Below, in pieces: positions 13,451 to 44,714 of a DNA stretch of 64,000 bases. The stretch covers positions 164,226-228,225 of the forward strand of contig CAZNUU010000001.1 of assembly GCA_964576615.1 (NCBI GenBank). Reading direction: 5' to 3'. Positions within the stretch are counted from its first letter, which is position 1, and the number at the start of each line of letters is the position of its first letter. The translations under genes were made by a program, and so were the position numbers. The notes under the pieces are model-generated. The model saw only the letters and a list, made by a program, of their open reading frames with translations, was not told the origin of the DNA and searched no databases. This stretch comes from an uncultured Candidatus Saccharibacteria bacterium. GTDB lineage: Bacteria; Patescibacteriota; Minisyncoccia; Phycocordibacterales; DATDWN01.

Positions 13451-14632
13451 TTACTTGAGATCCAGATAGGAATTTATATAGTGCACAGCAAATCCCCCAA
13501 AACTACTGTAACCTTCAAATGCTGAAGCTAGATTTGTTTTTTGTTTATCTAAATAACTTTTATTCGTGCTGTAAAAAGTTACATAGGATGGCTGAACGTT
13601 TCCGGTCTCTTGGGCAATCACGACTTTTGTTTTAGCTAAGAGCGCATCTTTTATTTCTCCTTTTGAAATGTCTATCGAGCCATCGTCGCCTCGACTAAAA
13701 TTCCGGTATGACATAACAACTAGTTTACTGCCCGAACGTCTGTCCAGTACACGGAGTAAGTGATCAAATGTAAAACCGTTCTCCCCTCTATATGAATACT
13801 CGGGCGTCTCGTTGCTATCGCTATCATAAAAATCCGGCACAACCACAGAGAGTAGTAGGTCCGTATTGTTTAATTTCGCAACAGTTTGGTCAACCAGATT
13901 TACAAAATTATAGAGAGTAACTTGTTTATTCTCTTCGTACTGTGGTAGCAAATACGACTCAACATCATACTGAAACCCCCGAAACTTTTCCGGGTGACTT
14001 TTATTAAACGCGATCACATAATCCAAAACAGCCAGCGGTTTATAAAGATTGCCGAACTCGGCCCAGTTTTGCCAGCCAGCCTCGGCATCTACAGAAATGC
14101 CGTCTTTGTGAGCGTCAGCAATAAATTTTTCAACTGCATTATCAAAAGCTAATTTAGATTTGTCTCTTTTTTCTCCGTTAGGCATGAGAAAAATGTCCAA
14201 ATAGGAATCTATGGAAAGATAAATTGTCTTAATTCCATTTTGTTTAGCACCAGAAATAACAAACTCTTTATAGGCAGGGGTAATATCCATAACTGGTGTC
14301 CAAAGCCAAGTGCCCACCTCCTCTCCTCCATTTATATTGCCAGTATTGTTGGAAACCGAACTTATCACACTCGCCAAAAGCAGATTTTTGTCAAAAACCA
14401 CAGTGTCTTTATATTTCGTATTTGCCTCAGAAATGCTTTTTGGATAATGGATATCAGAGTACTGTCTTGGATAGTAAATTTTTTTCGCTGTTGTTTTAGG
14501 CAAGAGAGCAATCGCCGGTTTTGGCTTTGTAGATTTGAGCGAAACAATAAAAAATCCCCCCATGATAATCACAAAAGCTCCTGCCCAAATCAATCGTTCG
14601 AAACTTAATACAGATTTTTTGCTTTTTTTCAT
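13451..14632 (-). CDS. hypothetical membrane-anchored protein, possibly glycoside-hydrolase-like (TIM-barrel).
   Basis: 393 aa with N-terminal TM; alternating beta/alpha pattern with conserved acidic/aromatic positions. Weak call. Confidence 0.3.
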   Translation of the reverse strand: MKKSKKSVLSFERLIWAGAFVIIMGGFFIVSLKSTKPKPAIALLPKTTAKKIYYPRQYSDIHYPKSISEANTKYKDTVVFDKNLLLASVISSVSNNTGNINGGEEVGTWLWTPVMDITPAYKEFVISGAKQNGIKTIYLSIDSYLDIFLMPNGEKRDKSKLAFDNAVEKFIADAHKDGISVDAEAGWQNWAEFGNLYKPLAVLDYVIAFNKSHPEKFRGFQYDVESYLLPQYEENKQVTLYNFVNLVDQTVAKLNNTDLLLSVVVPDFYDSDSNETPEYSYRGENGFTFDHLLRVLDRRSGSKLVVMSYRNFSRGDDGSIDISKGEIKDALLAKTKVVIAQETGNVQPSYVTFYSTNKSYLDKQKTNLASAFEGYSSFGGFAVHYINSYLDLK

Positions 14633-18053: not shown

Positions 18054-18896
18054 TTATTTCATTTTATAAAAAAGTTTATTGCCAAAACGGAGATCAATAT
18101 AATCTACTGAATCTAAACTATCAGTGAGAGGCTTGGTTTTAAGTAAGGCAGAAAGATTTTGGTAAGTCTCCTCGAGAGGATTTTTTGTATCAAAATAAAT
18201 TTTTAGACCTTTCTGTAAAATTATGGAAAATTGACTATCACTATCGGCTACTAGATAAAGAGGATGAAGATTGAGTGCTTTTATTGAATCGATAAATCCA
18301 GAAATTGCGGCAAACTCAGTACTGGATGAAATATATTCTTTACCTAGAGGATCGCCTGAGACCAACCCGTAGTATTTAAAATAAGCATCACCTGAAAAAA
18401 GAGGGGCTTCCGCAAATACAGTACTGTTTTGGTCTAGAAAATAACATTTCTCTGAATCTTGATAAGTCAGATCGCCGACTATGGCAGGTGGTTTGTCACA
18501 CCAAATAGCATAAGGACTTCTTTCCTTTATAGAAATCTGTAAGGTATGAAAGTCCTTAAGCTGCATGTCTAATGTATCTATTCGTTTGAACTGATCCTTC
18601 AGGTAACTTTCTAGCTTTTTTCTAGGTAACCAGAGTACATTGTTTTTTGGAAATAAATATAAATACGAACCGCTTAAAAAAGAAAGACTTTTGTCACTTA
18701 CCTCCTCTTCGGTCACCAATACTCCTCCGCTTAGTTCAACCTTTGAGAGACAAAACCCTGGTCGATGCGCTGCATATGAAGCCGCAGCTATTAAAAGAAC
18801 CAGTACTATAATTAGAATCAAATACCTTAGCCTTCTTTGATTTCTCTTTTTTTTCAGATACGCCTCGCGTAAAGGCAGAGAACTGGTAGTTATCAT
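18054..18896 (-). CDS. FtsQ/DivIB-like cell-division protein (POTRA domain).
   Basis: Cytoplasmic basic N-terminus, single TM, then LSKVELSGGVLVTEEEV...ISIKERSPYAIW typical of FtsQ POTRA. Confidence 0.5.
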   Translation of the reverse strand: MITTSSLPLREAYLKKKRNQRRLRYLILIIVLVLLIAAASYAAHRPGFCLSKVELSGGVLVTEEEVSDKSLSFLSGSYLYLFPKNNVLWLPRKKLESYLKDQFKRIDTLDMQLKDFHTLQISIKERSPYAIWCDKPPAIVGDLTYQDSEKCYFLDQNSTVFAEAPLFSGDAYFKYYGLVSGDPLGKEYISSSTEFAAISGFIDSIKALNLHPLYLVADSDSQFSIILQKGLKIYFDTKNPLEETYQNLSALLKTKPLTDSLDSVDYIDLRFGNKLFYKMK

Positions 18897-27927: not shown

Positions 27928-28608
27928 ATGAAAGCTGTTATCCTAGCCGCTGGAGTTGGCACAAGACTTCTGCCACTTACAGAAACCATTCCAAAAACAT
28001 TAATCCGAATCAATGGTGTGCCAATTATCGACAAAGTTTTGGAGTCCCTACCAGATGAAATAGATGAAATAATTATTGTTGTTGATTACCTAAAAGAAAA
28101 AATTAAAGATCATACAGGCGATAATTTTAAAGATAAAAAAATAATTTTTACGGAGCAAGGTGAATCCAAAGGTACTTTGGCAGCACTTCAGTCTGCAAAA
28201 TATTTGTTTTCTGAAAACGAAAGGTTTTTAGTTTTAAACGGAGATGATATTCATGACAAAGAGGAGCTCATGAGTTACCTGCTTTATCCCCGGTCGTTTG
28301 GAGTGCAGAAAATGATTATGCCAAATTATTATAGTGTTAAGCTCGGCAAGAAAAATCATATTGAGGGTTTTACTGCTCAATCTGAAGAAGAAAAAAGAAA
28401 CGGGGCACTTATTGCAACAGGTGCTTATGTTATTGACTCAAATATTTTTAAGCATCCCGGAGTAATGGTTTTTGGCGGTGAATATGGATTACCGCAAACT
28501 ATACTCGCCCAGAAAGAGGAAACGCCAATTGTTGGCATTGTGACTGAAAAATGGATCCCAATAAATTATGCTTCAGATATTGAGAAGGCAGAGAAGATGT
28601 TAGAATAA
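27928..28608 (+). CDS. sugar-phosphate nucleotidyltransferase (NTP_transferase fold).
   Basis: MKAVILAAGVGTRLLPLTETIPKTLI is the canonical G-x-G-T-R-L motif. Confidence 0.7.
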   Translation: MKAVILAAGVGTRLLPLTETIPKTLIRINGVPIIDKVLESLPDEIDEIIIVVDYLKEKIKDHTGDNFKDKKIIFTEQGESKGTLAALQSAKYLFSENERFLVLNGDDIHDKEELMSYLLYPRSFGVQKMIMPNYYSVKLGKKNHIEGFTAQSEEEKRNGALIATGAYVIDSNIFKHPGVMVFGGEYGLPQTILAQKEETPIVGIVTEKWIPINYASDIEKAEKMLE

Positions 28609-28634
28609 CCTTCGATTCTCGGATGCTCCGTCTG

Positions 28635-28716
28635 TGCCGGGAGAGAGAATCGAACTCTCAAGGATTGCTCCGCACGATTTTGAGTCGTGTGCGTCTACCA
28701 ATTCCGCCATCCCGGC
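28635..28716 (-). tRNA. tRNA-Leu (anticodon CAA).
   Basis: The reverse complement gives GCCGGGA...anticodon loop CT-CAA-AA, a long variable arm, and T-arm GAGTTCGATTCTC; acceptor 3' TCCCGGC-A. Confidence 0.8.
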
Positions 28717-28788: not shown

Positions 28789-29316
28789 CTACTTACGTAC
28801 AACCAAGCTGACAACAACCCCGAGGGGTTTGCGCTCTTTCCTCCTACGCCTCAACTCGTAATACATTCTCCGTGCTCGATCCGGGTTATGCTCTGGCAGC
28901 CCTCTTACTACCGCCGAGAGCACACTAACCTTGGTCCCAGCCCGGATGATTCTTTTGTATTCCGGGTCGAGGAAATAACCCATTTCCTCGATTGTTTCCT
29001 GAACCCGCCTTAGAGCAGTCGATGACTTTGCAAATGATTTGTCTTTTGCAATTGGCAACCAACCTGCCTGGGTAAACAACCCAATGACAGCTCGCTCTTG
29101 AGAGCGGTTCGTCCCCTTCCAGATTGCATTCAGGATGGAGAGCAAGAAATCCTCGGTGAGTGCGACCATGGTCTGTTCTCGCCGAGCCTCCCAGTTCTTG
29201 AGCCGCTTTTCTAAAGCTACACTGTCTCTCTCCTTTTGTTTTCTTGATTGACCCATTGAGCCCTCTCTAAAGCTGAGTTTGCGAGGAGAAACTATCCGTC
29301 GTATAGTCTTACACAA
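28789..29316 (-). CDS. hypothetical basic protein, moderately GC-enriched, upstream of tRNA-Leu(CAA).
   Basis: 175-aa ORF, Arg/Lys-rich; no motif recognised. Confidence 0.3.
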   Translation of the reverse strand: MCKTIRRIVSPRKLSFREGSMGQSRKQKERDSVALEKRLKNWEARREQTMVALTEDFLLSILNAIWKGTNRSQERAVIGLFTQAGWLPIAKDKSFAKSSTALRRVQETIEEMGYFLDPEYKRIIRAGTKVSVLSAVVRGLPEHNPDRARRMYYELRRRRKERKPLGVVVSLVVRK

Positions 29317-29320
29317 TCAG

Positions 29321-30220
29321 ATGAAGATAGTCAAAAAAGATAGGCTTCTGGTCATATTGGGTCAAACAGCAACTGGCAAAAGTGACCTTGCTGTAAAAAT
29401 CGCCAAAAAATATAACGGTGAGATTATTTCTGCTGACTCCAGGCAAGTTTACAAAGGACTCAATATTGGCACTGGAAAACTTACTAGAAAAGAGATGCGA
29501 GGTGTTCATCACTGGATGATCGATGTGATTTCCCCCAAGAAAACTTTTTCAGTTACAGATTGGAAGAAAATGGCGGAGGAAAGAATTGAAGTAATATTAA
29601 AGAAACACAAATTGCCTATTATCTGTGGTGGCACAGGTTTTTACATTCAGTCGATCGTGGATAATATTGTTTTGCCAGAAGTACCTCCAAACAAAAAATT
29701 GAGAGGAGAGTTAGAAAAAAAATCTGCCTTGGAACTTTTTAACATTCTCGAAAAAGTAGACTCAAACAGAGCCAAAAATATTGATAAGCATAATAAAGTA
29801 AGACTAATAAGAGCAATTGAGATAGCAAAGGCTATGGGCAAGATCCCAAAATTAAAGAAGAATAGAGTTACTTTTGACGTACTACAAATAGGCCTGAAAA
29901 GCGAAAATTTGTCAGAGAATATACACAAAAGACTCATTCGCCGTTTGAAGAAAGGCATGATCACTGAAGCAACAAGGCTTCACAAAAATGGCCTGTCCTT
30001 CAAACGCATGCGAGAACTCGGTCTGGAATACAAATACTTAGCTGACTTATTAGAGAAAAAAATAACAAAAAAAGATTTTATGAAAAAACTTGAAGCAGAT
30101 ATCTGGCGTTATTCAAAAAGACAAATGACCTGGTTCAAGAGAGATAAAAGAATAGAGTGGTTTGACCCAAGTGAAATAAAGAGAATTAATAGACTAATTA
30201 AAAAATTTCTAGTAGCATAA
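29321..30220 (+). CDS. miaA: tRNA dimethylallyltransferase.
   Basis: P-loop GQTATGKSDLAV, and ISADSRQVYKGLNIGT. Confidence 0.85.
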   Translation: MKIVKKDRLLVILGQTATGKSDLAVKIAKKYNGEIISADSRQVYKGLNIGTGKLTRKEMRGVHHWMIDVISPKKTFSVTDWKKMAEERIEVILKKHKLPIICGGTGFYIQSIVDNIVLPEVPPNKKLRGELEKKSALELFNILEKVDSNRAKNIDKHNKVRLIRAIEIAKAMGKIPKLKKNRVTFDVLQIGLKSENLSENIHKRLIRRLKKGMITEATRLHKNGLSFKRMRELGLEYKYLADLLEKKITKKDFMKKLEADIWRYSKRQMTWFKRDKRIEWFDPSEIKRINRLIKKFLVA

Positions 30221-30228
30221 AACGGTCT

Positions 30229-30299
30229 GGGGGGTTAGTTAAGTGGCATAACTACGGTCTCCAAAACCGTTGTCGGGAGTTCGATTCTTCCACCCCCCG
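30229..30299 (+). tRNA. tRNA-Trp (anticodon CCA).
   Basis: Acceptor GGGGGGT/ACCCCCC, D-arm GTTA-AGTGGCA-TAAC, anticodon stem ACGGT/ACCGT with loop CT-CCA-AA, and T-arm GGGAG-TTCGATT-CTTCC. Confidence 0.8.
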
Positions 30300-30398
30300 C
30301 TTTCATGCAAAGCTTGCTTTGCGTGGGAGAATCGAAGGCCGGAGCGCGACGGCGCGAGGCGGGGTCGAAAGTAAAGTCAGCAGACTTTGACTTGTGAC

Positions 30399-30418
30399 CG
30401 ATTCTTCCACCCCCCGCC
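30399..30418 (+). repeat. direct repeat of the tRNA-Trp 3' end (att-like).
   Basis: CGATTCTTCCACCCCCCGC at 30281-30300 recurs at 30399-30418, 98 bp downstream. Confidence 0.7.
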
Positions 30419-30451
30419 ACAACAAAAATTCGCCTTATGGGCGAATTTTTG

Positions 30452-30607
30452 TTATTTCTTTACTTCTTTAAATACAACTCTCTTTCGCAATTTCTTGCTG
30501 TATTTTTTAAGCTCGATTTTTCGCTCTACTTTTCTTTTATTCTTGGAAGTCCAATAAACTTCGCCTGTTTCCTTATTCTTTATCTGTATTAATCTATCCT
30601 GTGACAT
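30452..30607 (-). CDS. rpmG: 50S ribosomal protein L33.
   Basis: Unlisted 51-aa ORF: MSQDRLIQIKNKETGEVYWTSKNKRKVERKIELKKYSKKLRKRVVFKEVKK (L33 KNKRN...LELKKY pattern). Followed by hairpin AAAAATTCGCC-ttatg-GGCGAATTTTT at 30424-30450. Confidence 0.7.
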   Translation of the reverse strand: MSQDRLIQIKNKETGEVYWTSKNKRKVERKIELKKYSKKLRKRVVFKEVKK

Positions 30608-30664: not shown

Positions 30665-31444
30665 TTATTCAAACTCAACAAGTATCGGGCTGTGGTCTGA
30701 TACCTCATAAGGTAATACTTTAAAATTAGTGATCTTTATTCCGTCACTCACAAAGACATAGTCCGCCAATCTATGTTTCTTTTTATATAGACTTGTTCTG
30801 GTAGACGTAACATTGTTTTCTCTGATTAGGTTCCGCAGACCAAATTCTTCAAATTTTTTGAGACTTTCTGTATCTGGTAATAGATTAAAGTCACCACATA
30901 ATATGAAAGGGTTATTTAATGTTTTAAGGAATTTAATTATGTTGTCAGATTGTACTAAACGATCTTCAGTATCAGTTTTACCCTTTCCGTTCCAAATACC
31001 GTGAAAGTTAATTACAGTTATCGGTCCATTTTTAGCATTTATAGTCGCATACTGGACATTTCTAGCATGATTACCAACATCTCCTGTTGGTATATAGCTT
31101 CTATCCTTGTATACAAAAAAATCTCCCTCTTCCCTCAAACCCAAATCATTCTTAATAAACATACCTAAGCCATAATGAGTCCCGTAATGTGGCCTAAAAA
31201 AACCCATGTGATTAGTCAGGGTTTTTTGAAGTCTCAAAAACATATCCTCCATCATGTCTTTGAGCACTACTCCCCCAACTATTGCATTTACAAGAGATGC
31301 ATACATTTGTTTCTGATTCTCCTCATTGACATTCCAAACTTCTTGCAAGCAAAAAATATCTATTTTATTTTTATGCTCTTCAAAAAAATCCAGAAAAATA
31401 GAATCAACCCTCCCACCCCAGGTATTTAAAGTAATTAACTTCAT
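30665..31444 (-). CDS. endonuclease/exonuclease/phosphatase (EEP) family protein.
   Basis: MKLITLNTWGG...IFCLQEV start, and C-terminal SDHSPI. Confidence 0.7.
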   Translation of the reverse strand: MKLITLNTWGGRVDSIFLDFFEEHKNKIDIFCLQEVWNVNEENQKQMYASLVNAIVGGVVLKDMMEDMFLRLQKTLTNHMGFFRPHYGTHYGLGMFIKNDLGLREEGDFFVYKDRSYIPTGDVGNHARNVQYATINAKNGPITVINFHGIWNGKGKTDTEDRLVQSDNIIKFLKTLNNPFILCGDFNLLPDTESLKKFEEFGLRNLIRENNVTSTRTSLYKKKHRLADYVFVSDGIKITNFKVLPYEVSDHSPILVEFE

Positions 31445-39091: not shown

Positions 39092-39430
39092 GGCGTAGTA
39101 GCCAAGTAGCATGAGCATAGCGAACTAGTAAAAAGCCAAGGGTCTGCATGCAGACAAATCTGAAATAATTTCAGATAATGAAGAACGAAGTAAATAGTGG
39201 CGTAGTAGCCAAGATAGCAAGGCAAAGGTCTGCAAAACCTTTATGCGGCGGCGCACATCCGCCCTACGCCTCCAGGCGAGGAAGCAAGCAAATTTATTTG
39301 CTTGCTTGCGGATGTGCGAGCCGCAGATATATTTTTTCAGTAGAAAAAATAATCGAGGCGGGGTCGCGAAATTTTGCAAGCGACGGCGAGCAAAATATTT
39401 GTGACCGCATCCGTCTTCGCATTTATATTT
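39092..39430 (+). repeat. GC-rich highly structured region with a tandem imperfect repeat, upstream of tRNA-Leu(TAA).
   Basis: GGCGTAGTAGCCAAGTAGCA...GGTCTGCA repeated at 39094 and 39198; palindrome GTCTGCATGCAGAC; hairpin ATCTGAAAT-aa-TTTCAGAT; 11-bp stem CGCACATCCGC...GCGGATGTGCG enclosing hairpin GCAAGCAAA-ttta-TTTGCTTGC. Confidence 0.4.
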
Positions 39431-40053: not shown

Positions 40054-40671
40054 TTACGGGACCTCCCTACGAACGTGATAAGCCCCCCTGAGAAGAGAAG
40101 CTGAGATCACAAATAACGTGAGCGTAGAGAAGCACCAGAAAATGATCTTTGGTAGATCATCAGCTGGTGGGAGTCCAGTCCGCAGTAAGAGCCCTGAAAT
40201 GAACAGTGCTCCGACTGTAAACGCCGCCGCCATACCTTCGAATCGCAGAATCTCCTTACGCTGATAAGACCTTTGAGGCCTCGACAGCATTCCAATGGCG
40301 AGAGCCACCAGCAAGACTGTTGAGATTGTGATCACAACATCAGGAACTTCAAAACCAAACCAGCTTTTGAAAATCCTGATGATGAAGGGCTGCGGAACTC
40401 CCCCAATCCAGTTATCCTTGACGAATTCGGGATTGGAGAGACCTCGCAGGTAGGCCGAGAGCAGAGTGAGAGGACAGATGAAGTTGAACGGAATTTGCGC
40501 AAGACCGACTGTGATCAGGACAGCTCGATTGTACTTGAAGATCCTCGAGTAGCGAGAAGACAACGCAAAAAATGGACCAACTGCCATACCCACCATGATT
40601 ACAAGCACGACGAGGTGGAAAAAATCCACCAACATAGCCAGCCTTTCATAGAAGTTCATAACTTCCTCCAT
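40054..40671 (-). CDS. hypothetical polytopic membrane protein, GC-enriched, directly 3' of tRNA-Lys.
   Basis: 205 aa with about 5 TM helices. Confidence 0.4.
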   Translation of the reverse strand: MEEVMNFYERLAMLVDFFHLVVLVIMVGMAVGPFFALSSRYSRIFKYNRAVLITVGLAQIPFNFICPLTLLSAYLRGLSNPEFVKDNWIGGVPQPFIIRIFKSWFGFEVPDVVITISTVLLVALAIGMLSRPQRSYQRKEILRFEGMAAAFTVGALFISGLLLRTGLPPADDLPKIIFWCFSTLTLFVISASLLRGAYHVRREVP

Positions 40672-41339: not shown

Positions 41340-41420
41340 GGGCGAGTGGTGAAATGGCAGACACGCATGCCTTAGGAGCATGTCCCGCAAGGGGTGGAGG
41401 TTCAAGTCCTCTCTCGCCCA
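41340..41420 (+). tRNA. tRNA-Leu (anticodon TAG).
   Basis: GGGCGAG...anticodon stem CATGC/GCATG with loop CT-TAG-GA, long variable arm TCCCGCAAGGGGTG, T-arm GGAGGTTCAAGTCCTCT; followed by terminator AAACTGGC-gttca-GCCAGTTTTTG (41425-41449). Confidence 0.8.
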
Positions 41421-41617
41421 CAAGAAACTGGCGTTCAGCCAGTTTTTGTGCGGACTAGAGAGGACTTGAAGACCGATTGAGATATTTTTGGAGTTACGAG
41501 CAAAAATATCCAATTGGGATACTGATCGTGTAACGATCAAGTCCGCTTGCTAAAAATAGTTCCTGAACTATTTGACTTTTTTTAAAAAATCGATAGATTG
41601 GCCGAAGAGAGGATGAC

Positions 41618-43946: not shown

Positions 43947-44714
43947 ATGATCATCGCAGCGGTCGTCGTGGTGCTCGCAGCCATTTACATTTGGCTGCGA
44001 GCACAACAAGATCGAGACAGCAGAGGTATTGCGCGGGAGAGGCAGGAAGCCCCTCCCGACCAGGCAGATACGCCCCCGCAACCCGAAAGGGATGCGGATG
44101 GCGACTTCCCTTGGTACAAGTGGTGGAAGAGGCCCGGGTGGTGGAAAGAGAACATCTTTACCATTCCACTCGGAATCCTCCTCGGCCACATCATCGTCGC
44201 TGTCGCGACTCCAGATTTGTACTTCGAGTACATCTGGAGTTCGTGGCAGTTCTGGGCGCTGCAAGCGGTGATCGTTATCGCCGCCTGGATGATTCCGCAA
44301 GGAAATGTCCAGTACCATCCGAAGCTTGGCAAGATCATTGTCGTTACCGCTCTGCTAGCTGTTGTATATGTCTGGGGAAACAAAGCCCTGGATGATGCAC
44401 AGAAAAGCGCAGCGGCATCGAACAATGCTCAAGCCAGCTCATCGACCCAGAACACCCCGCCACCGAACAACGGAGGCAGGATCGTGATCACCGCCCCGCC
44501 GGTCTCGCAAGAGCCGACGGGTCGCATCGCACTACCACCGAGAGCCGTGCTCTCGGCGAACAAGCCGTTCACAATTTTTCAACTCGACGAGAGGGGAAAA
44601 GAGGCCTCCTACGACGGAGGTCCGGGCATGGAGGGGGTTCATCTCCCGCCATCTCCCTACGCCAGGTTCCGGTCAAAATCAGAAGAACCGGTCCTGATAA
44701 CCTTCATCCAGTAA
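43947..44714 (+). CDS. polytopic membrane protein, possible NfeD-like SPFH partner, GC-rich.
   Basis: 4 TM helices plus a C-terminal soluble beta-rich segment; followed by terminator CCCCCCCGCA-tacg-TGCGGGGGGG (44742-44765). Confidence 0.35.
   Translation: MIIAAVVVVLAAIYIWLRAQQDRDSRGIARERQEAPPDQADTPPQPERDADGDFPWYKWWKRPGWWKENIFTIPLGILLGHIIVAVATPDLYFEYIWSSWQFWALQAVIVIAAWMIPQGNVQYHPKLGKIIVVTALLAVVYVWGNKALDDAQKSAAASNNAQASSSTQNTPPPNNGGRIVITAPPVSQEPTGRIALPPRAVLSANKPFTIFQLDERGKEASYDGGPGMEGVHLPPSPYARFRSKSEEPVLITFIQ

What the first reader, a model, noticed from the sequence alone, without database searches (positions are those of the whole stretch)
30229..30452. att-like duplication of the tRNA-Trp 3' end 98 bp downstream, a remnant of a site-specific integration
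The last 19-20 nt of tRNA-Trp (CGATTCTTCCACCCCCCGC, 30281-30300) recur as a direct repeat at 30399-30418. The repeat is followed by a bidirectional terminator (30424-30450) and the rpmG gene. Tyrosine-integrase elements inserting into tRNA 3' ends leave exactly this signature (attL within the tRNA, attR a copy of the 3' end). Here only 98 bp of non-tRNA sequence separates the repeats (GC-rich, GCGTGGGAGAATCGAAGGCCGG...), so the element was lost or reduced to a tiny scar, or a miniature element remains.
Basis: seen in the sequence. Interest (0 to 1): 0.5.

Follow-up and report, generated by a model that had tools for sequence, protein, structure and literature searches.

The report
Structured mini-element inserted behind tRNA-Trp
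The repeated tRNA-Trp 3' end is real, but it bounds one complete copy of an apparently undescribed family of gene-less, tightly folded 90-190-base elements that sit behind about half of the tRNA genes sampled in these ultra-small (Patescibacteria) bacteria, each carrying a sequence complementary to its own host tRNA.

Summary
CGATTCTTCCACCCCCCGC occurs at 30282-30300 (the end of tRNA-Trp) and again at 30399-30417, 98 nt apart.

Related genomes have empty sites, so this is an insertion bounded by a duplicated tRNA 3' end. The interior, however, is not a scar. It is a conserved three-way junction whose closing helix pairs an internal antisense segment (30323-30336) with the tRNA-derived repeat.

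Homologous elements of at least three core types follow tRNA-Trp, Leu, Tyr and Cys genes in other Patescibacteria. They are always on the tRNA strand, and the antisense always matches the host tRNA. In this window 4 of 8 tRNA genes carry one.

- **Covariation:** 92-94% of cells are paired, and 15/20 and 20/23 pairs show compensatory changes.
- **Strand:** G-U exceeds A-C by 27 to 9, so the tRNA-sense strand is the folded one.
- **Turnover:** copy number and element type differ between close relatives.
- **Absences:** no ORF, no integrase, no Rfam family, no phage or plasmid match, and no paper found.

Best reading (confidence about 0.5): a non-autonomous mobile element specific for tRNA 3' ends. 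How it moves and what the fold does remain unknown.

The parts
30229..30300 (+). tRNA-Trp(CCA), intact cloverleaf, no encoded CCA. It hosts the element.
   Evidence: ARAGORN; Rfam tRNA 62.6 bits
30282..30300 (+). Copy 1 of the 19-nt repeat (T-loop C56 to discriminator +1). It is part of the working tRNA.
   Evidence: D1
30307..30322 (+). Small hairpin GCAAAGCTTGCTTTGC between copy 1 and the antisense. Its position is conserved in other copies; its sequence is not.
   Evidence: MFE fold; comparison
30323..30336 (+). Antisense segment GTGGGAGAATCGAA (P1 5' strand). It complements tRNA positions 54-67 and contains a copy of the T-stem 5' strand GGGAG, including its G-U pair.
   Evidence: I1, I9; helix 1 covaries with tRNA identity
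30338..30360 (+). P2: a 3-bp helix GCC/GGC that covaries across copies (GTC/GAC, GAC/GTC, ACC/GGT, AGC/GCT, GAT/ATC), an internal loop GGA/GA (possible tandem G-A pairs), and a GCGC stem with a GACG loop.
   Evidence: (helices 2-3: all six pairs have changes on both sides; 100% and 96.7% of cells paired)
30363..30399 (+). P3 hairpin (GGTCG...AAAGTCAGCAGACTTT...TGACC). It is nearly identical in L059, L063 and L021.
30399..30417 (+). Copy 2 of the 19-nt repeat. Bases 30400-30410 form the P1 3' strand. It is followed by CA, giving an encoded CCA at 30417-30419.
30421..30453 (.). Bidirectional intrinsic-terminator hairpin shared with convergent rpmG. It is the original flank of the tRNA, as seen in relatives.
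   Evidence: (L011 has a near-identical terminator)
30452..30607 (-). rpmG (ribosomal protein L33, 51 aa). Context gene only.
39275..39422 (+). A second element of the same core type (type A), directly after tRNA-Cys 39199-39274. Order: GGCGAGG, hairpin, antisense GCGGATGTGCG, core, TTTGTGAC, diverged copy 2.
   Evidence: CM R2 105 bits, E 7e-25; (z -8.6)
41422..41548 (+). A type B element directly after tRNA-Leu(TAG) 41340-41421. Order: hairpin plus T-run, antisense AGAGAGGACTTGAA, core, copy 2 CAAGTCC...
   Evidence: CM R1 88 bits, E 5e-20; (z -7.0)
28609..28633 (-). Truncated left part of a type A element (…CCGAGAATCGAAGG) directly after tRNA-Leu(CAA) 28634-28716(-). It is cut off by the stop codon of the convergent ORF 27928-28608.

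Best explanation
Positions 30301-30417 (equivalently 30282-30398) are one intact copy of a gene-less, non-autonomous mobile element specialised for the 3' end of tRNA genes.

The element carries its own copy of the host tRNA's 3' segment, from the T-loop to the end. It also carries an internal antisense to that segment. The two pair to close a three-way junction (P1-P2-P3), folded on the tRNA-sense strand.

I infer that integration occurs by recombination between the element-borne tRNA fragment and the chromosomal tRNA 3' end, as in an att-type single crossover of a small excised form. This leaves a complete tRNA (copy 1) and pushes the other copy of the 3' end distally (copy 2). The tRNA keeps working and the element is harmless.

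The machinery must act in trans and is unknown. The folded junction, as RNA or as single-stranded DNA, is probably what that machinery recognises, and it is kept by selection.

**Shown:** the insertion with its duplication, empty sites, family membership, the covarying fold, strand polarity, matching of the antisense to the host tRNA, exclusive tRNA association, rapid turnover, and the absence of ORFs.

**Inferred:** the excised intermediate, crossover within the tRNA fragment, trans-acting recombination, and whether the folded molecule is RNA or ssDNA.
For: **Insertion.** Empty sites exist in relatives with the identical tRNA-Trp end. In the filled/empty pair L066/L067, the flank after copy 2 equals the empty-site flank.

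**Family.** The same architecture lies behind tRNA-Trp, Leu-CAA, Leu-TAG, Tyr and Cys genes in many Patescibacteria contigs, with core types A, B and C. Four of the 8 tRNA genes in this window carry one.

**Fold.** Type B has 91.9% of cells paired and 15/20 pairs with changes on both sides; 0/500 shuffles reach this, and slid controls give 36-52%. Type A has 93.5% paired, 20/23 pairs and 0/500 shuffles. The window copy folds into the same junction on its own, z = -4.0.

**Strand.** G-U outnumbers A-C 27 to 9 in paired cells.

**Association.** All strong covariance-model hits (E <= 1e-6) in 324 kb, and every weaker hit I inspected, lie just 3' of a tRNA gene on the same strand, or at a contig end, or next to a tRNA fragment. 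This includes the non-training hits L059, L063 and L068. One weak hit (L068 3022-3123) lies in ordinary sequence and looks like chance; three other weak hits were not inspected.

**Turnover.**
- L036 has two identical tandem units where L037 and L042 have one.
- The window has type A at tRNA-Trp where its relative L011 has type B.
- Arrays are ordered proximal-young, distal-old (L036 Leu and Tyr, L039 Tyr).

**Crossover inside the tRNA fragment.** In L059 and L063 the antisense and copy 2 match a foreign tRNA-Trp variant. Copy 2 is a hybrid that switches to the host sequence near the very 3' end.

**Selection on the fold.** The acceptor-like helix of the tRNA-Cys element (GCGAGGA/TCTTCGC) has drifted from the tRNA (GGCGTAG/CTACGCC) through a compensatory change, yet it still pairs.
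Against: - No recombinase, excised form or autonomous relative was found. There were no real hits in IMG/VR.
- A plain att-recombination model does not explain why the interior needs an elaborate conserved junction.
- It does not explain how both the antisense and the tRNA fragment become matched to a new tRNA species when the same core type appears behind different tRNAs.
- It does not explain why the antisense also complements T-loop positions 54-56, which copy 2 lacks. In L016 a G lies opposite C55; elsewhere an A lies opposite T55.
- Sampling is biased to three tRNA genes near rpmG and to a few dozen contigs.
Confidence: 0.5

Rival explanations
1. A resident functional RNA rather than (or besides) a parasite. 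It would be a structured 3' trailer, co-transcribed with the tRNA. Its long closing helix imitates the coaxial acceptor/T-stem stack and ends in N(CCA). It would act in tRNA 3' processing (for example as an RNase P or RNase Z entry site), or be released as a stable tRNA-like small RNA that binds a protein through its tandem G-A motifs.
For: - In the window no terminator separates the tRNA from the element. The only terminator follows copy 2.
- Copy 2 ends in an encoded CCA here and in L001, L016, L036 and L063.
- The fold is on the sense strand with G-U pairs.
- Many copies have a mimic of the acceptor 5' strand with its own wobble positions (L066 Tyr GCGCTGG).
- The tRNA-Cys element keeps its helix through compensatory change after diverging from the tRNA.
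Against: - The element is dispensable. Close relatives lack it at the same gene.
- Type A and type B replace each other at the same gene.
- Several copies have a terminator-like hairpin plus T-run between the tRNA and the core (L001, L012, L036, L039, L066, window Leu-TAG).
- The acceptor mimic is absent from the window's tRNA-Trp copy.
- Copy 2 has decayed in L011.
Confidence: 0.25
2. An intron-like ribozyme inserted in the T-loop at U55|C56 that carries a spare copy of the 3' exon at its own 5' end. The antisense would act as an internal guide spanning the junction. The core would catalyse cleavage and ligation (or reverse splicing) at the junction with copy 1 or copy 2, and mobility would go through an RNA intermediate.
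For: - The antisense has the polarity of a group I guide sequence. Its 5' part pairs with the '3' exon' (positions 56-67) and its last bases pair with T54-T55 of the '5' exon'. It tracks C55 in L016.
- Insertion points are fixed per core type: before C56 in type A, at about 56/57 in type B.
- T-loops are known targets of group I introns in tmRNA genes (PMC13011429, section 17).
- An A1-type core interrupts a tRNA-Asn fragment in L021.
Against: - No match to Intron_gpI or any self-cleaving ribozyme family, even at E <= 10.
- The core is only about 60-90 nt.
- There is no U-G pair at the putative 5' splice site and no G before the 3' junction (GTGAC|C).
- A complete tRNA precedes the element, so splicing is not needed.
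- No reverse transcriptase was seen. Patescibacteria are reported to lack group II introns (PMC13011429, abstract).
Confidence: 0.1
3. One reading: a degraded scar (attL-attR) of a large tyrosine-integrase island or prophage that integrated into tRNA-Trp and was then almost entirely deleted.
For: A direct repeat running from the T-loop to the tRNA end is the classic signature of tRNA-targeting integrases (established knowledge). Empty sites exist in relatives.
Against: - Independent deletions would not leave the same covarying three-way junction behind different tRNA genes in different lineages.
- There is no integrase in the window.
- No second tRNA-end copy was found 0.5-10 kb downstream of, or anywhere upstream of, any of 68 distinct tRNA contexts.
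- No phage or plasmid carries the interval or the att sequence.
Confidence: 0.05
4. A second, degenerate tRNA; or a terminator/antiterminator that uses the repeat; or a chance repeat.
For: The 5' acceptor strand of the tRNA can pair with copy 2 in a free-energy fold of the whole region. Many copies carry acceptor-like and T-stem-like strands.
Against: - ARAGORN and Rfam find no tRNA in 30301-30420.
- The segment opposite the T-loop is antisense to the loop, not a T-arm.
- The repeat is not part of the terminator.
- The duplication is absent from relatives.
- The chance probability is of the order of 1e-10.
Confidence: 0.02

Closest known systems
Genomic islands and prophages that integrate into tRNA or tmRNA genes through tyrosine integrases (T-loop sublocation; attL/attR)
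   Same: Insertion at the 3' part of a tRNA gene. A direct repeat runs from the T-loop to the end of the tRNA. The tRNA is regenerated and the older end displaced. Arrays are ordered with the youngest copy next to the tRNA. A hybrid repeat in L059 implies crossover within the shared segment.
   Different: Only 90-190 nt long, with no integrase or any other ORF. The interior is a conserved covarying three-way junction with an antisense to the att segment. Folding is strand-specific, with G-U pairs. The repeat length varies (18-24 nt, up to about 36 nt in L066).
Guide pairings of mobile introns (group I internal guide sequence P1/P10; group II EBS-IBS), including group I introns in Patescibacteria tRNA genes and in tmRNA T-loops
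   Same: An internal segment complementary to the sequences flanking the insertion point, which changes with the target. Located in a tRNA. Abundant in the same phylum.
   Different: No group I or group II core (Rfam negative), and far too small. No U-G or omega-G at the junctions. The '3' exon' is duplicated, so an intact tRNA precedes the element and no splicing is needed.
Folded single-strand recombination sites (integron attC; CTX-phi attP used by XerCD; IS200/IS605 ends)
   Same: Imperfect hairpins made from inverted repeats on one specific strand would recreate a duplex copy of the target. Size is similar to attC (57-141 nt). No gene lies inside. Hairpins with GCGAAGC loops recur; from memory (Hirao et al.), d(GCGAAGC) is an unusually stable DNA mini-hairpin.
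   Different: The target is a tRNA gene rather than attI, dif or a tetranucleotide. The central part is a conserved junction rather than a variable loop. No IntI, Xer or TnpA link has been shown. Whether the folded molecule is DNA at all is unknown.
tRNA-like structures in other RNAs (tmRNA tRNA-like domain, bacterial YrlA/Y RNA, viral 3' tRNA-like structures)
   Same: The 5' and 3' parts pair into an acceptor-like helix continued by a T-stem-like helix, ending in discriminator + CCA in several copies.
   Different: The T-loop is replaced. The helix runs on through the loop bases into a three-way junction. The acceptor part is missing or diverged in several copies, including the window's tRNA-Trp copy (missing).
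TnpB right-end RNA (reRNA) of IS200/IS605 elements (scaffold followed by a guide taken from the flank)
   Same: A structured scaffold of about 100 nt at the right end of an inserted element, followed by 16-20 nt of flanking target sequence.
   Different: The scaffold contains an antisense that would sequester the 'guide'. No tnpB or tnpA gene was seen. The target is duplicated, whereas IS605 insertion makes no duplication.

Membership tests
tRNA-targeting tyrosine-integrase element (att scar) | Direct repeat identical to the 3' part of the tRNA, flanking the inserted DNA | tested here: met
   19/19 repeat at 30282-30300 and 30399-30417
tRNA-targeting tyrosine-integrase element (att scar) | Empty site in related genomes | tested here: met
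   L001, L003, L012, L017, L055; L066 filled versus L067 empty
tRNA-targeting tyrosine-integrase element (att scar) | Integrase gene inside or next to the element, or full-length relatives that carry one | tested here: not met
   The 98-nt interior has no ORF. No integrase among 30 window ORFs. No tRNA-end copy 0.5-10 kb downstream of, or upstream of, any of 68 distinct tRNA contexts. No IMG/VR hit to the att 18-mer.
tRNA-targeting tyrosine-integrase element (att scar) | Interior of a scar is arbitrary leftover sequence | tested here: not met
   The interior matches covariance model R2 at 58 bits, E 1.7e-12, and shares a covarying fold with copies behind other tRNAs
Second or degenerate tRNA | Cloverleaf detectable by tRNA finders | tested here: not met
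   ARAGORN and Rfam find only 30229-30300
Group I intron | Catalytic core P3-P9 (Rfam RF00028) | tested here: not met
   No hit at E <= 10 in 30150-30520, nor at E <= 1 in L004, L011, L016, L021, L059
Group I intron | U-G pair at the 5' splice site and a G as the last intron base | tested here: not met
   U55 lies opposite A. The base before copy 2 is C (GTGAC|C)
Known self-cleaving ribozymes (hammerhead, HDV, twister, pistol, hatchet, hairpin) | Match to the family covariance model | tested here: not met
   Rfam 15 at E <= 10: none
MITE / IS-derived miniature transposon | Terminal inverted repeats typical of the element, plus a short target duplication of fixed length | tested here: not met
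   The inverted segments (antisense and copy 2) change with the host tRNA. The duplication is 18-24 nt or more and variable
Folded single-strand att site (attC / CTX-phi type) | Strand-specific imperfect hairpin that rebuilds a duplex copy of the target | tested here: inconclusive
   Strand bias is G-T/G-U 27 versus A-C 9. The same fold is obtained with DNA parameters, z = -3.6. RNA explains both results equally well.
Folded single-strand att site (attC / CTX-phi type) | Cognate recombinase (IntI, XerCD) acting on it | not testable with these tools
   No recombinase in the window. The genome outside the window cannot be seen.
Intrinsic terminator or attenuator using the repeat | The repeat forms part of alternative terminator/antiterminator hairpins and is conserved in relatives | tested here: not met
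   The terminator 30421-30453 lies outside the repeat. The repeat is absent in relatives.

The most novel reading that the evidence does not exclude
The elements are a new class of guide-bearing mobile nucleic acid. A small folded RNA (or single-stranded DNA) would use its antisense segment to find the T-arm of a particular tRNA gene, or of the tRNA itself. It would insert at a fixed T-loop position while bringing a spare 3' exon, so the host tRNA is never broken. This would be either a minimal new ribozyme/intron type or a guide for an unknown trans-acting recombinase. Re-targeting to new tRNAs would be templated.
Probability: 0.3. Interest if true: 0.95.

Novelty: categorically new. Interest (0 to 1): 0.8.

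Why it matters
If this holds, roughly half of the tRNA genes sampled here in Patescibacteria carry an unannotated, structured, gene-less passenger. That phylum is a large part of bacterial diversity and has extremely reduced genomes.

The passenger is matched base for base to its host tRNA. This would add a new kind of mobile element or non-coding RNA. It would explain many 'partial tRNA' repeats and odd tRNA flanks in these genomes. It would also give a natural example of target recognition by a built-in antisense combined with a harmless, gene-restoring insertion, which is a design of interest for programmable insertion.

It also makes testable the question of how ORF-less elements spread and re-target in organisms that appear to lack group II introns and, at these loci, integrases.

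Tried and rejected
**Searches that found nothing relevant**
- Rfam 15, at gathering threshold and at E <= 10 or E <= 1, on the window region and on related loci. Only tRNAs and chance terminator-like hits appeared.
- IMG/VR scans for the att 18-mer (0 hits) and for a type B core motif (0 hits).
- IMG/VR scan for a type A core motif. It gave 22 hits, about what chance would give by my own rough estimate. Neither covariance model matched any of them, and the one hit near a tRNA (L086) lacks the antisense.
- The single metagenome scan, for copy 1 plus antisense, returned only a duplicate of L016.
- BLAST against phages and plasmids matched only the tRNA part.
- Exact-protein look-up of the window's rpmG: not on record.
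- Contigs of the nearest rpmG homologues (P0001-P0004) have a different gene order or empty sites.
- A search for tRNA-end copies more than 500 nt downstream of, or upstream of, 68 distinct tRNA contexts (within the fetched flanks, at most 10 kb) found none.
- Pfam on 30 window ORFs found housekeeping genes only.
- Three literature searches found only the group I intron paper, which concerns anticodon-loop position 35/36 and does not describe this.

**Ideas considered and dropped**
- Hammerhead: no CUGANGA...GAAA core.
- Box C/D or H/ACA guide RNAs: no box next to the guide, and these bacteria lack the proteins.
- T-box: no specifier or antiterminator.
- IS110 bridge RNA: a 2-nt core duplication would be expected, and no recombinase is present.
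- Archaeal bulge-helix-bulge intron: no motif and no endonuclease.
- LAGLIDADG genes that follow tRNA-Leu in relatives, as the autonomous partner: no repeat follows them.
Full report
**1. The observation**

The sequence and the repeat finder show an exact 19-nt direct repeat, CGATTCTTCCACCCCCCGC, at 30282-30300 and 30399-30417. It is unique in the window.
- Copy 1 is the 3' end of an ordinary tRNA-Trp(CCA), 30229-30300. It runs from T-loop C56 to one base past the discriminator.
- Copy 2 is followed by CA, so it encodes CCA. Copy 1 is not.
- The 98-nt interval is 56% G+C in a 42% G+C window.
- The hairpin 30421-30453 is the only terminator-like site. rpmG is convergent at 30452-30607.
This is complementary, with one G-U, to TTCGATTCTTCCAC of either copy (I1 and I9).

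**2. It is an insertion**

An exact scan of one genome per species for the 19-mer gave 11 Patescibacteria tRNA-Trp loci.
- Most go from the tRNA directly to a terminator and rpmG. These are empty sites: L001, L003, L012, L017 and, from a later look-up, L055.
- L004, L011 and L016 have a 143-156-nt unit ending in a second copy of the tRNA end.
- L011 has an rpmG terminator almost identical to the window's, so it is a fairly close relative. Its insert nevertheless has a different core type.
- A clean allele pair exists. L066 and L067 encode the same L33 protein. L066 has an insert behind tRNA-Trp and L067 does not. The sequence after copy 2 in L066 is the sequence after the tRNA in L067.

**3. 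It is one member of a family, and the window holds four**

I scanned every tRNA in the fetched loci for a downstream copy of its own 3' end. This showed the same arrangement behind tRNA-Leu(CAA), tRNA-Tyr and further tRNA-Trp genes.

The common plan, in order:
- copy 1, which is the end of the tRNA;
- one or two hairpins, often terminator-like or with a CGAAG loop;
- often a stretch complementary to the acceptor 3' strand;
- a hairpin;
- an antisense to the T-stem 3' strand plus the T-loop;
- a conserved core;
- copy 2.

At least three core types exist.
- **Type A:** ...GAA-RNC-GGAGC...CGAG-GNY-GGGGTCG...hairpin...GTGAC|C56. The window's tRNA-Trp element is type A.
- **Type B:** a long bulged hairpin, GKTACTG, then a hairpin with a TGTAAG loop.
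- **Type C:** seen in L053, L056 and the L066 tRNA-Trp.

In this window:
- tRNA-Cys is followed by a type A element (39275-39422).
- tRNA-Leu(TAG) is followed by a type B element (41422-41548).
- tRNA-Leu(CAA) is followed by a truncated type A left part (28609-28633, minus strand).

So 4 of the 8 tRNA genes carry one.

**4. The fold is real and lies on the tRNA-sense strand**

RNAalifold on hand-collected copies predicts a three-way junction. P1 pairs the antisense with copy 2, and P2 and P3 are hairpins.

| Measure | Type B (12 sequences) | Type A (10 distinct sequences) |
|---|---|---|
| Cells forming standard pairs | 91.9% | 93.5% |
| Pairs with changes on both sides | 15 of 20 | 20 of 23 |
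| Shuffles reaching these values | 0 of 500 | 0 of 500 |
| Paired after sliding partners 1-3 columns | 36-52% | 34-51% |

These alignments were fitted to the models, which favours the structure. The slid-partner control and the first MAFFT-based counts agree, however.
- The 3-bp base of P2 reads GCC/GGC, GTC/GAC, GAC/GTC, ACC/GGT, AGC/GCT and GAT/ATC in different copies.
- Paired cells contain 27 G-U against 9 A-C. The folded strand is therefore the tRNA-sense strand, as RNA or as single-stranded DNA.
- The window copy alone folds into the same junction: hairpin 30307-30322, P1 30323-30333 with 30400-30410, P2 30338-30360, P3 30363-30399. For RNA, z = -4.0. With DNA parameters the fold is the same, z = -3.6. 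The opposite strand folds differently, z = -2.95.
- The two other intact window elements give z = -8.6 and -7.0.

**5. Association and content**

Covariance models R1 (type B) and R2 (type A) were searched over 324 kb of Patescibacteria loci plus the window.
- All strong hits (E <= 1e-6), and every weaker hit I inspected, lie immediately 3' of a tRNA gene on the same strand, or at a contig end, or next to a tRNA fragment. One weak hit (L068 3022-3123) lies in ordinary sequence and looks like chance; three other weak hits were not inspected.
- This includes hits that were not in the training sets: L059, L063, L068, L053 and L021.
- In the window the only hits are 30324-30408, 39306-39415 and 41458-41548.
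- No copy contains an ORF.
- Thirty window ORFs are housekeeping genes, including DprA, with no integrase, transposase or reverse transcriptase.
- No second tRNA-end copy lies 0.5-10 kb downstream of, or anywhere upstream of, any of 68 distinct tRNA contexts.
- Rfam has no family for the interior. Phage and plasmid collections match only the tRNA. IMG/VR gave nothing real.

**6. The antisense follows the host tRNA**

| tRNA T-loop region | Antisense in the element |
|---|---|
| TTCGATTCT | AGAATCGAA |
| TTCGAGTCC | GGACTCGAA |
| TTCAAATCC | GGATTTGAA |
| TTCAAGTCC | GGACTTGAA |
| CGCACATCCGC (aberrant T-loop of the window's tRNA-Cys) | GCGGATGTGCG |

Helix 1 shows this as covariation.

The antisense also covers positions 54-56, which copy 2 usually lacks. 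In L016, whose T-loop is TCCGATT, it reads ...ATCGG. In L004 and L011 (TTCGATT) it reads ...ATCGA. At least when it originated, it matched the tRNA itself and not only copy 2.

Conversely, in L059 and L063 the antisense and copy 2 match the window-type tRNA-Trp, although the host tRNA-Trp is a different variant. Their copy 2 is a hybrid that becomes host-like near its 3' end, and their P3 is almost identical to the window's. That is what a crossover within the tRNA fragment of an incoming element would give. It also shows recent horizontal spread of the window's subfamily.

**7. Dynamics**
- L036 has two identical tandem type A units behind tRNA-Trp, where L037 and L042 have one.
- L036 tRNA-Leu has two diverged type B units. 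The distal repeat preserves an older form of the tRNA end.
- tRNA-Tyr carries type B followed by a decayed type A in L036. In L039 it carries type A followed by a type B remnant.
- Copy 2 has decayed in L011.
- In the window's tRNA-Cys element, the acceptor-like helix has diverged from the tRNA but stays paired through a compensatory change: GCGAGGA/TCTTCGC against GGCGTAG/CTACGCC. This argues that the closed structure is under selection.

**8. How it most likely works**

Shown: an insertion with duplication of the tRNA 3' end; a conserved strand-specific three-way junction closed by antisense and tRNA fragment; exclusive tRNA association; turnover; no genes.

Best inference (confidence about 0.5): a non-autonomous mobile element whose excised form carries one tRNA 3' fragment.
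- Recombination between that fragment and the chromosomal tRNA end integrates it, rebuilds a complete tRNA, and leaves the other copy distally.
- Unknown machinery, acting in trans, recognises the folded junction.
- Natural competence (DprA is present) and the recurrent GCGAAGC mini-hairpins make a single-stranded DNA stage conceivable. From memory, d(GCGAAGC) is an exceptionally stable DNA hairpin. A stage of that kind is used by integron attC and CTX-phi sites. This is not shown here.

Rivals:
- A resident, co-transcribed tRNA-trailer RNA with a tRNA-like closing helix (0.25). This is not exclusive with mobility.
- An intron-like ribozyme carrying a spare 3' exon (0.1).
- An integrase scar (0.05).
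- A degenerate tRNA, a terminator or chance (0.02).

No model yet explains how the antisense and the tRNA fragment are both re-matched when a core type moves to another tRNA species. Repair of mismatches within the copy 1/antisense hairpin is one speculative route.

**9. Comparison and novelty**
- It works like a tRNA-targeting integrative element, in that it has an att-like duplication and restores the gene. It fails that family's test for an integrase and for an arbitrary interior.
- It resembles mobile introns in having a target-matched internal guide, but it lacks their cores and splice-site rules.
- It resembles attC and CTX-phi sites in being a small folded strand-specific unit, but its target and its conserved junction differ.
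- Three full-text literature searches found only the group I intron study of Patescibacteria tRNA genes (PMC13011429). That study concerns anticodon-loop introns and does not mention these elements.
- I therefore rate it as probably a new kind of element.
- Two caveats apply. The literature search covers open-access text only. My sampling is a few dozen contigs centred on the rpmG neighbourhood.

Noticed in passing
window 39199-39274: tRNA-Cys(GCA) has a non-canonical T-loop, CGCACAT (no T54-T55, no A58), and a D-loop without GG. ARAGORN calls it but it stays below Rfam's tRNA threshold. The antisense of the element behind it matches this odd loop exactly.
   Followed up: partly
L046 7864-8442; L049 2001-2657; L067 about 3950 onward; L003 3189-3290 (degenerate); L066 7584-7796; L068 6599-7387: Free-standing LAGLIDADG (and one GIY-YIG) homing-endonuclease-like ORFs start a few to about 20 nt after tRNA-Leu(CAA), or lie next to tRNA-Tyr, in relatives. 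No tRNA-end repeat follows them. The 3' flank of tRNA genes appears to be a general landing zone in these genomes.
   Followed up: partly
L021 2300-2454 versus L022 1587-1658: The L021 contig has the first 25 nt of tRNA-Asn, then a type A core whose P3 is nearly identical to the window element, then decayed pieces of anticodon stem and T-arm. The sister contig L022 has an intact tRNA-Asn. The contig ends there, so the arrangement is unresolved.
   Followed up: partly
L036 6200-6640 versus L037 3060-3320: Two identical tandem type A units lie behind tRNA-Trp in one contig and a single unit in contigs encoding the same L33 protein. This is a copy-number polymorphism.
   Followed up: yes
L067 2790-2812 (minus strand); also L011, L015, L036, L066: Small hairpins with a CGAAG loop (GCGAAGC or ACGAAGT) lie directly after tRNA genes, even at an empty site. 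In L066 the duplication extends through this hairpin (about 36 nt).
   Followed up: no
L051 4194-4635: A truncated type A left part after tRNA-Leu(CAA) is followed by a PemK-like toxin ORF.
   Followed up: no
window 30665-31444 (minus strand): An Exo_endo_phos family protein (259 aa) lies between rpmG and tRNA-Tyr. A gene of about 254 aa holds a similar position near rpmG and tRNA-Trp or tRNA-Tyr in relatives (its homology was not checked), so it is probably a resident gene, not part of the element.
   Followed up: partly
window 28789-29316 (minus strand); also 13451-14632, 18054-18896, 40054-40671, 43947-44714: ORFs with no Pfam family. The 175-aa ORF lies directly upstream of tRNA-Leu(CAA).
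   Followed up: no
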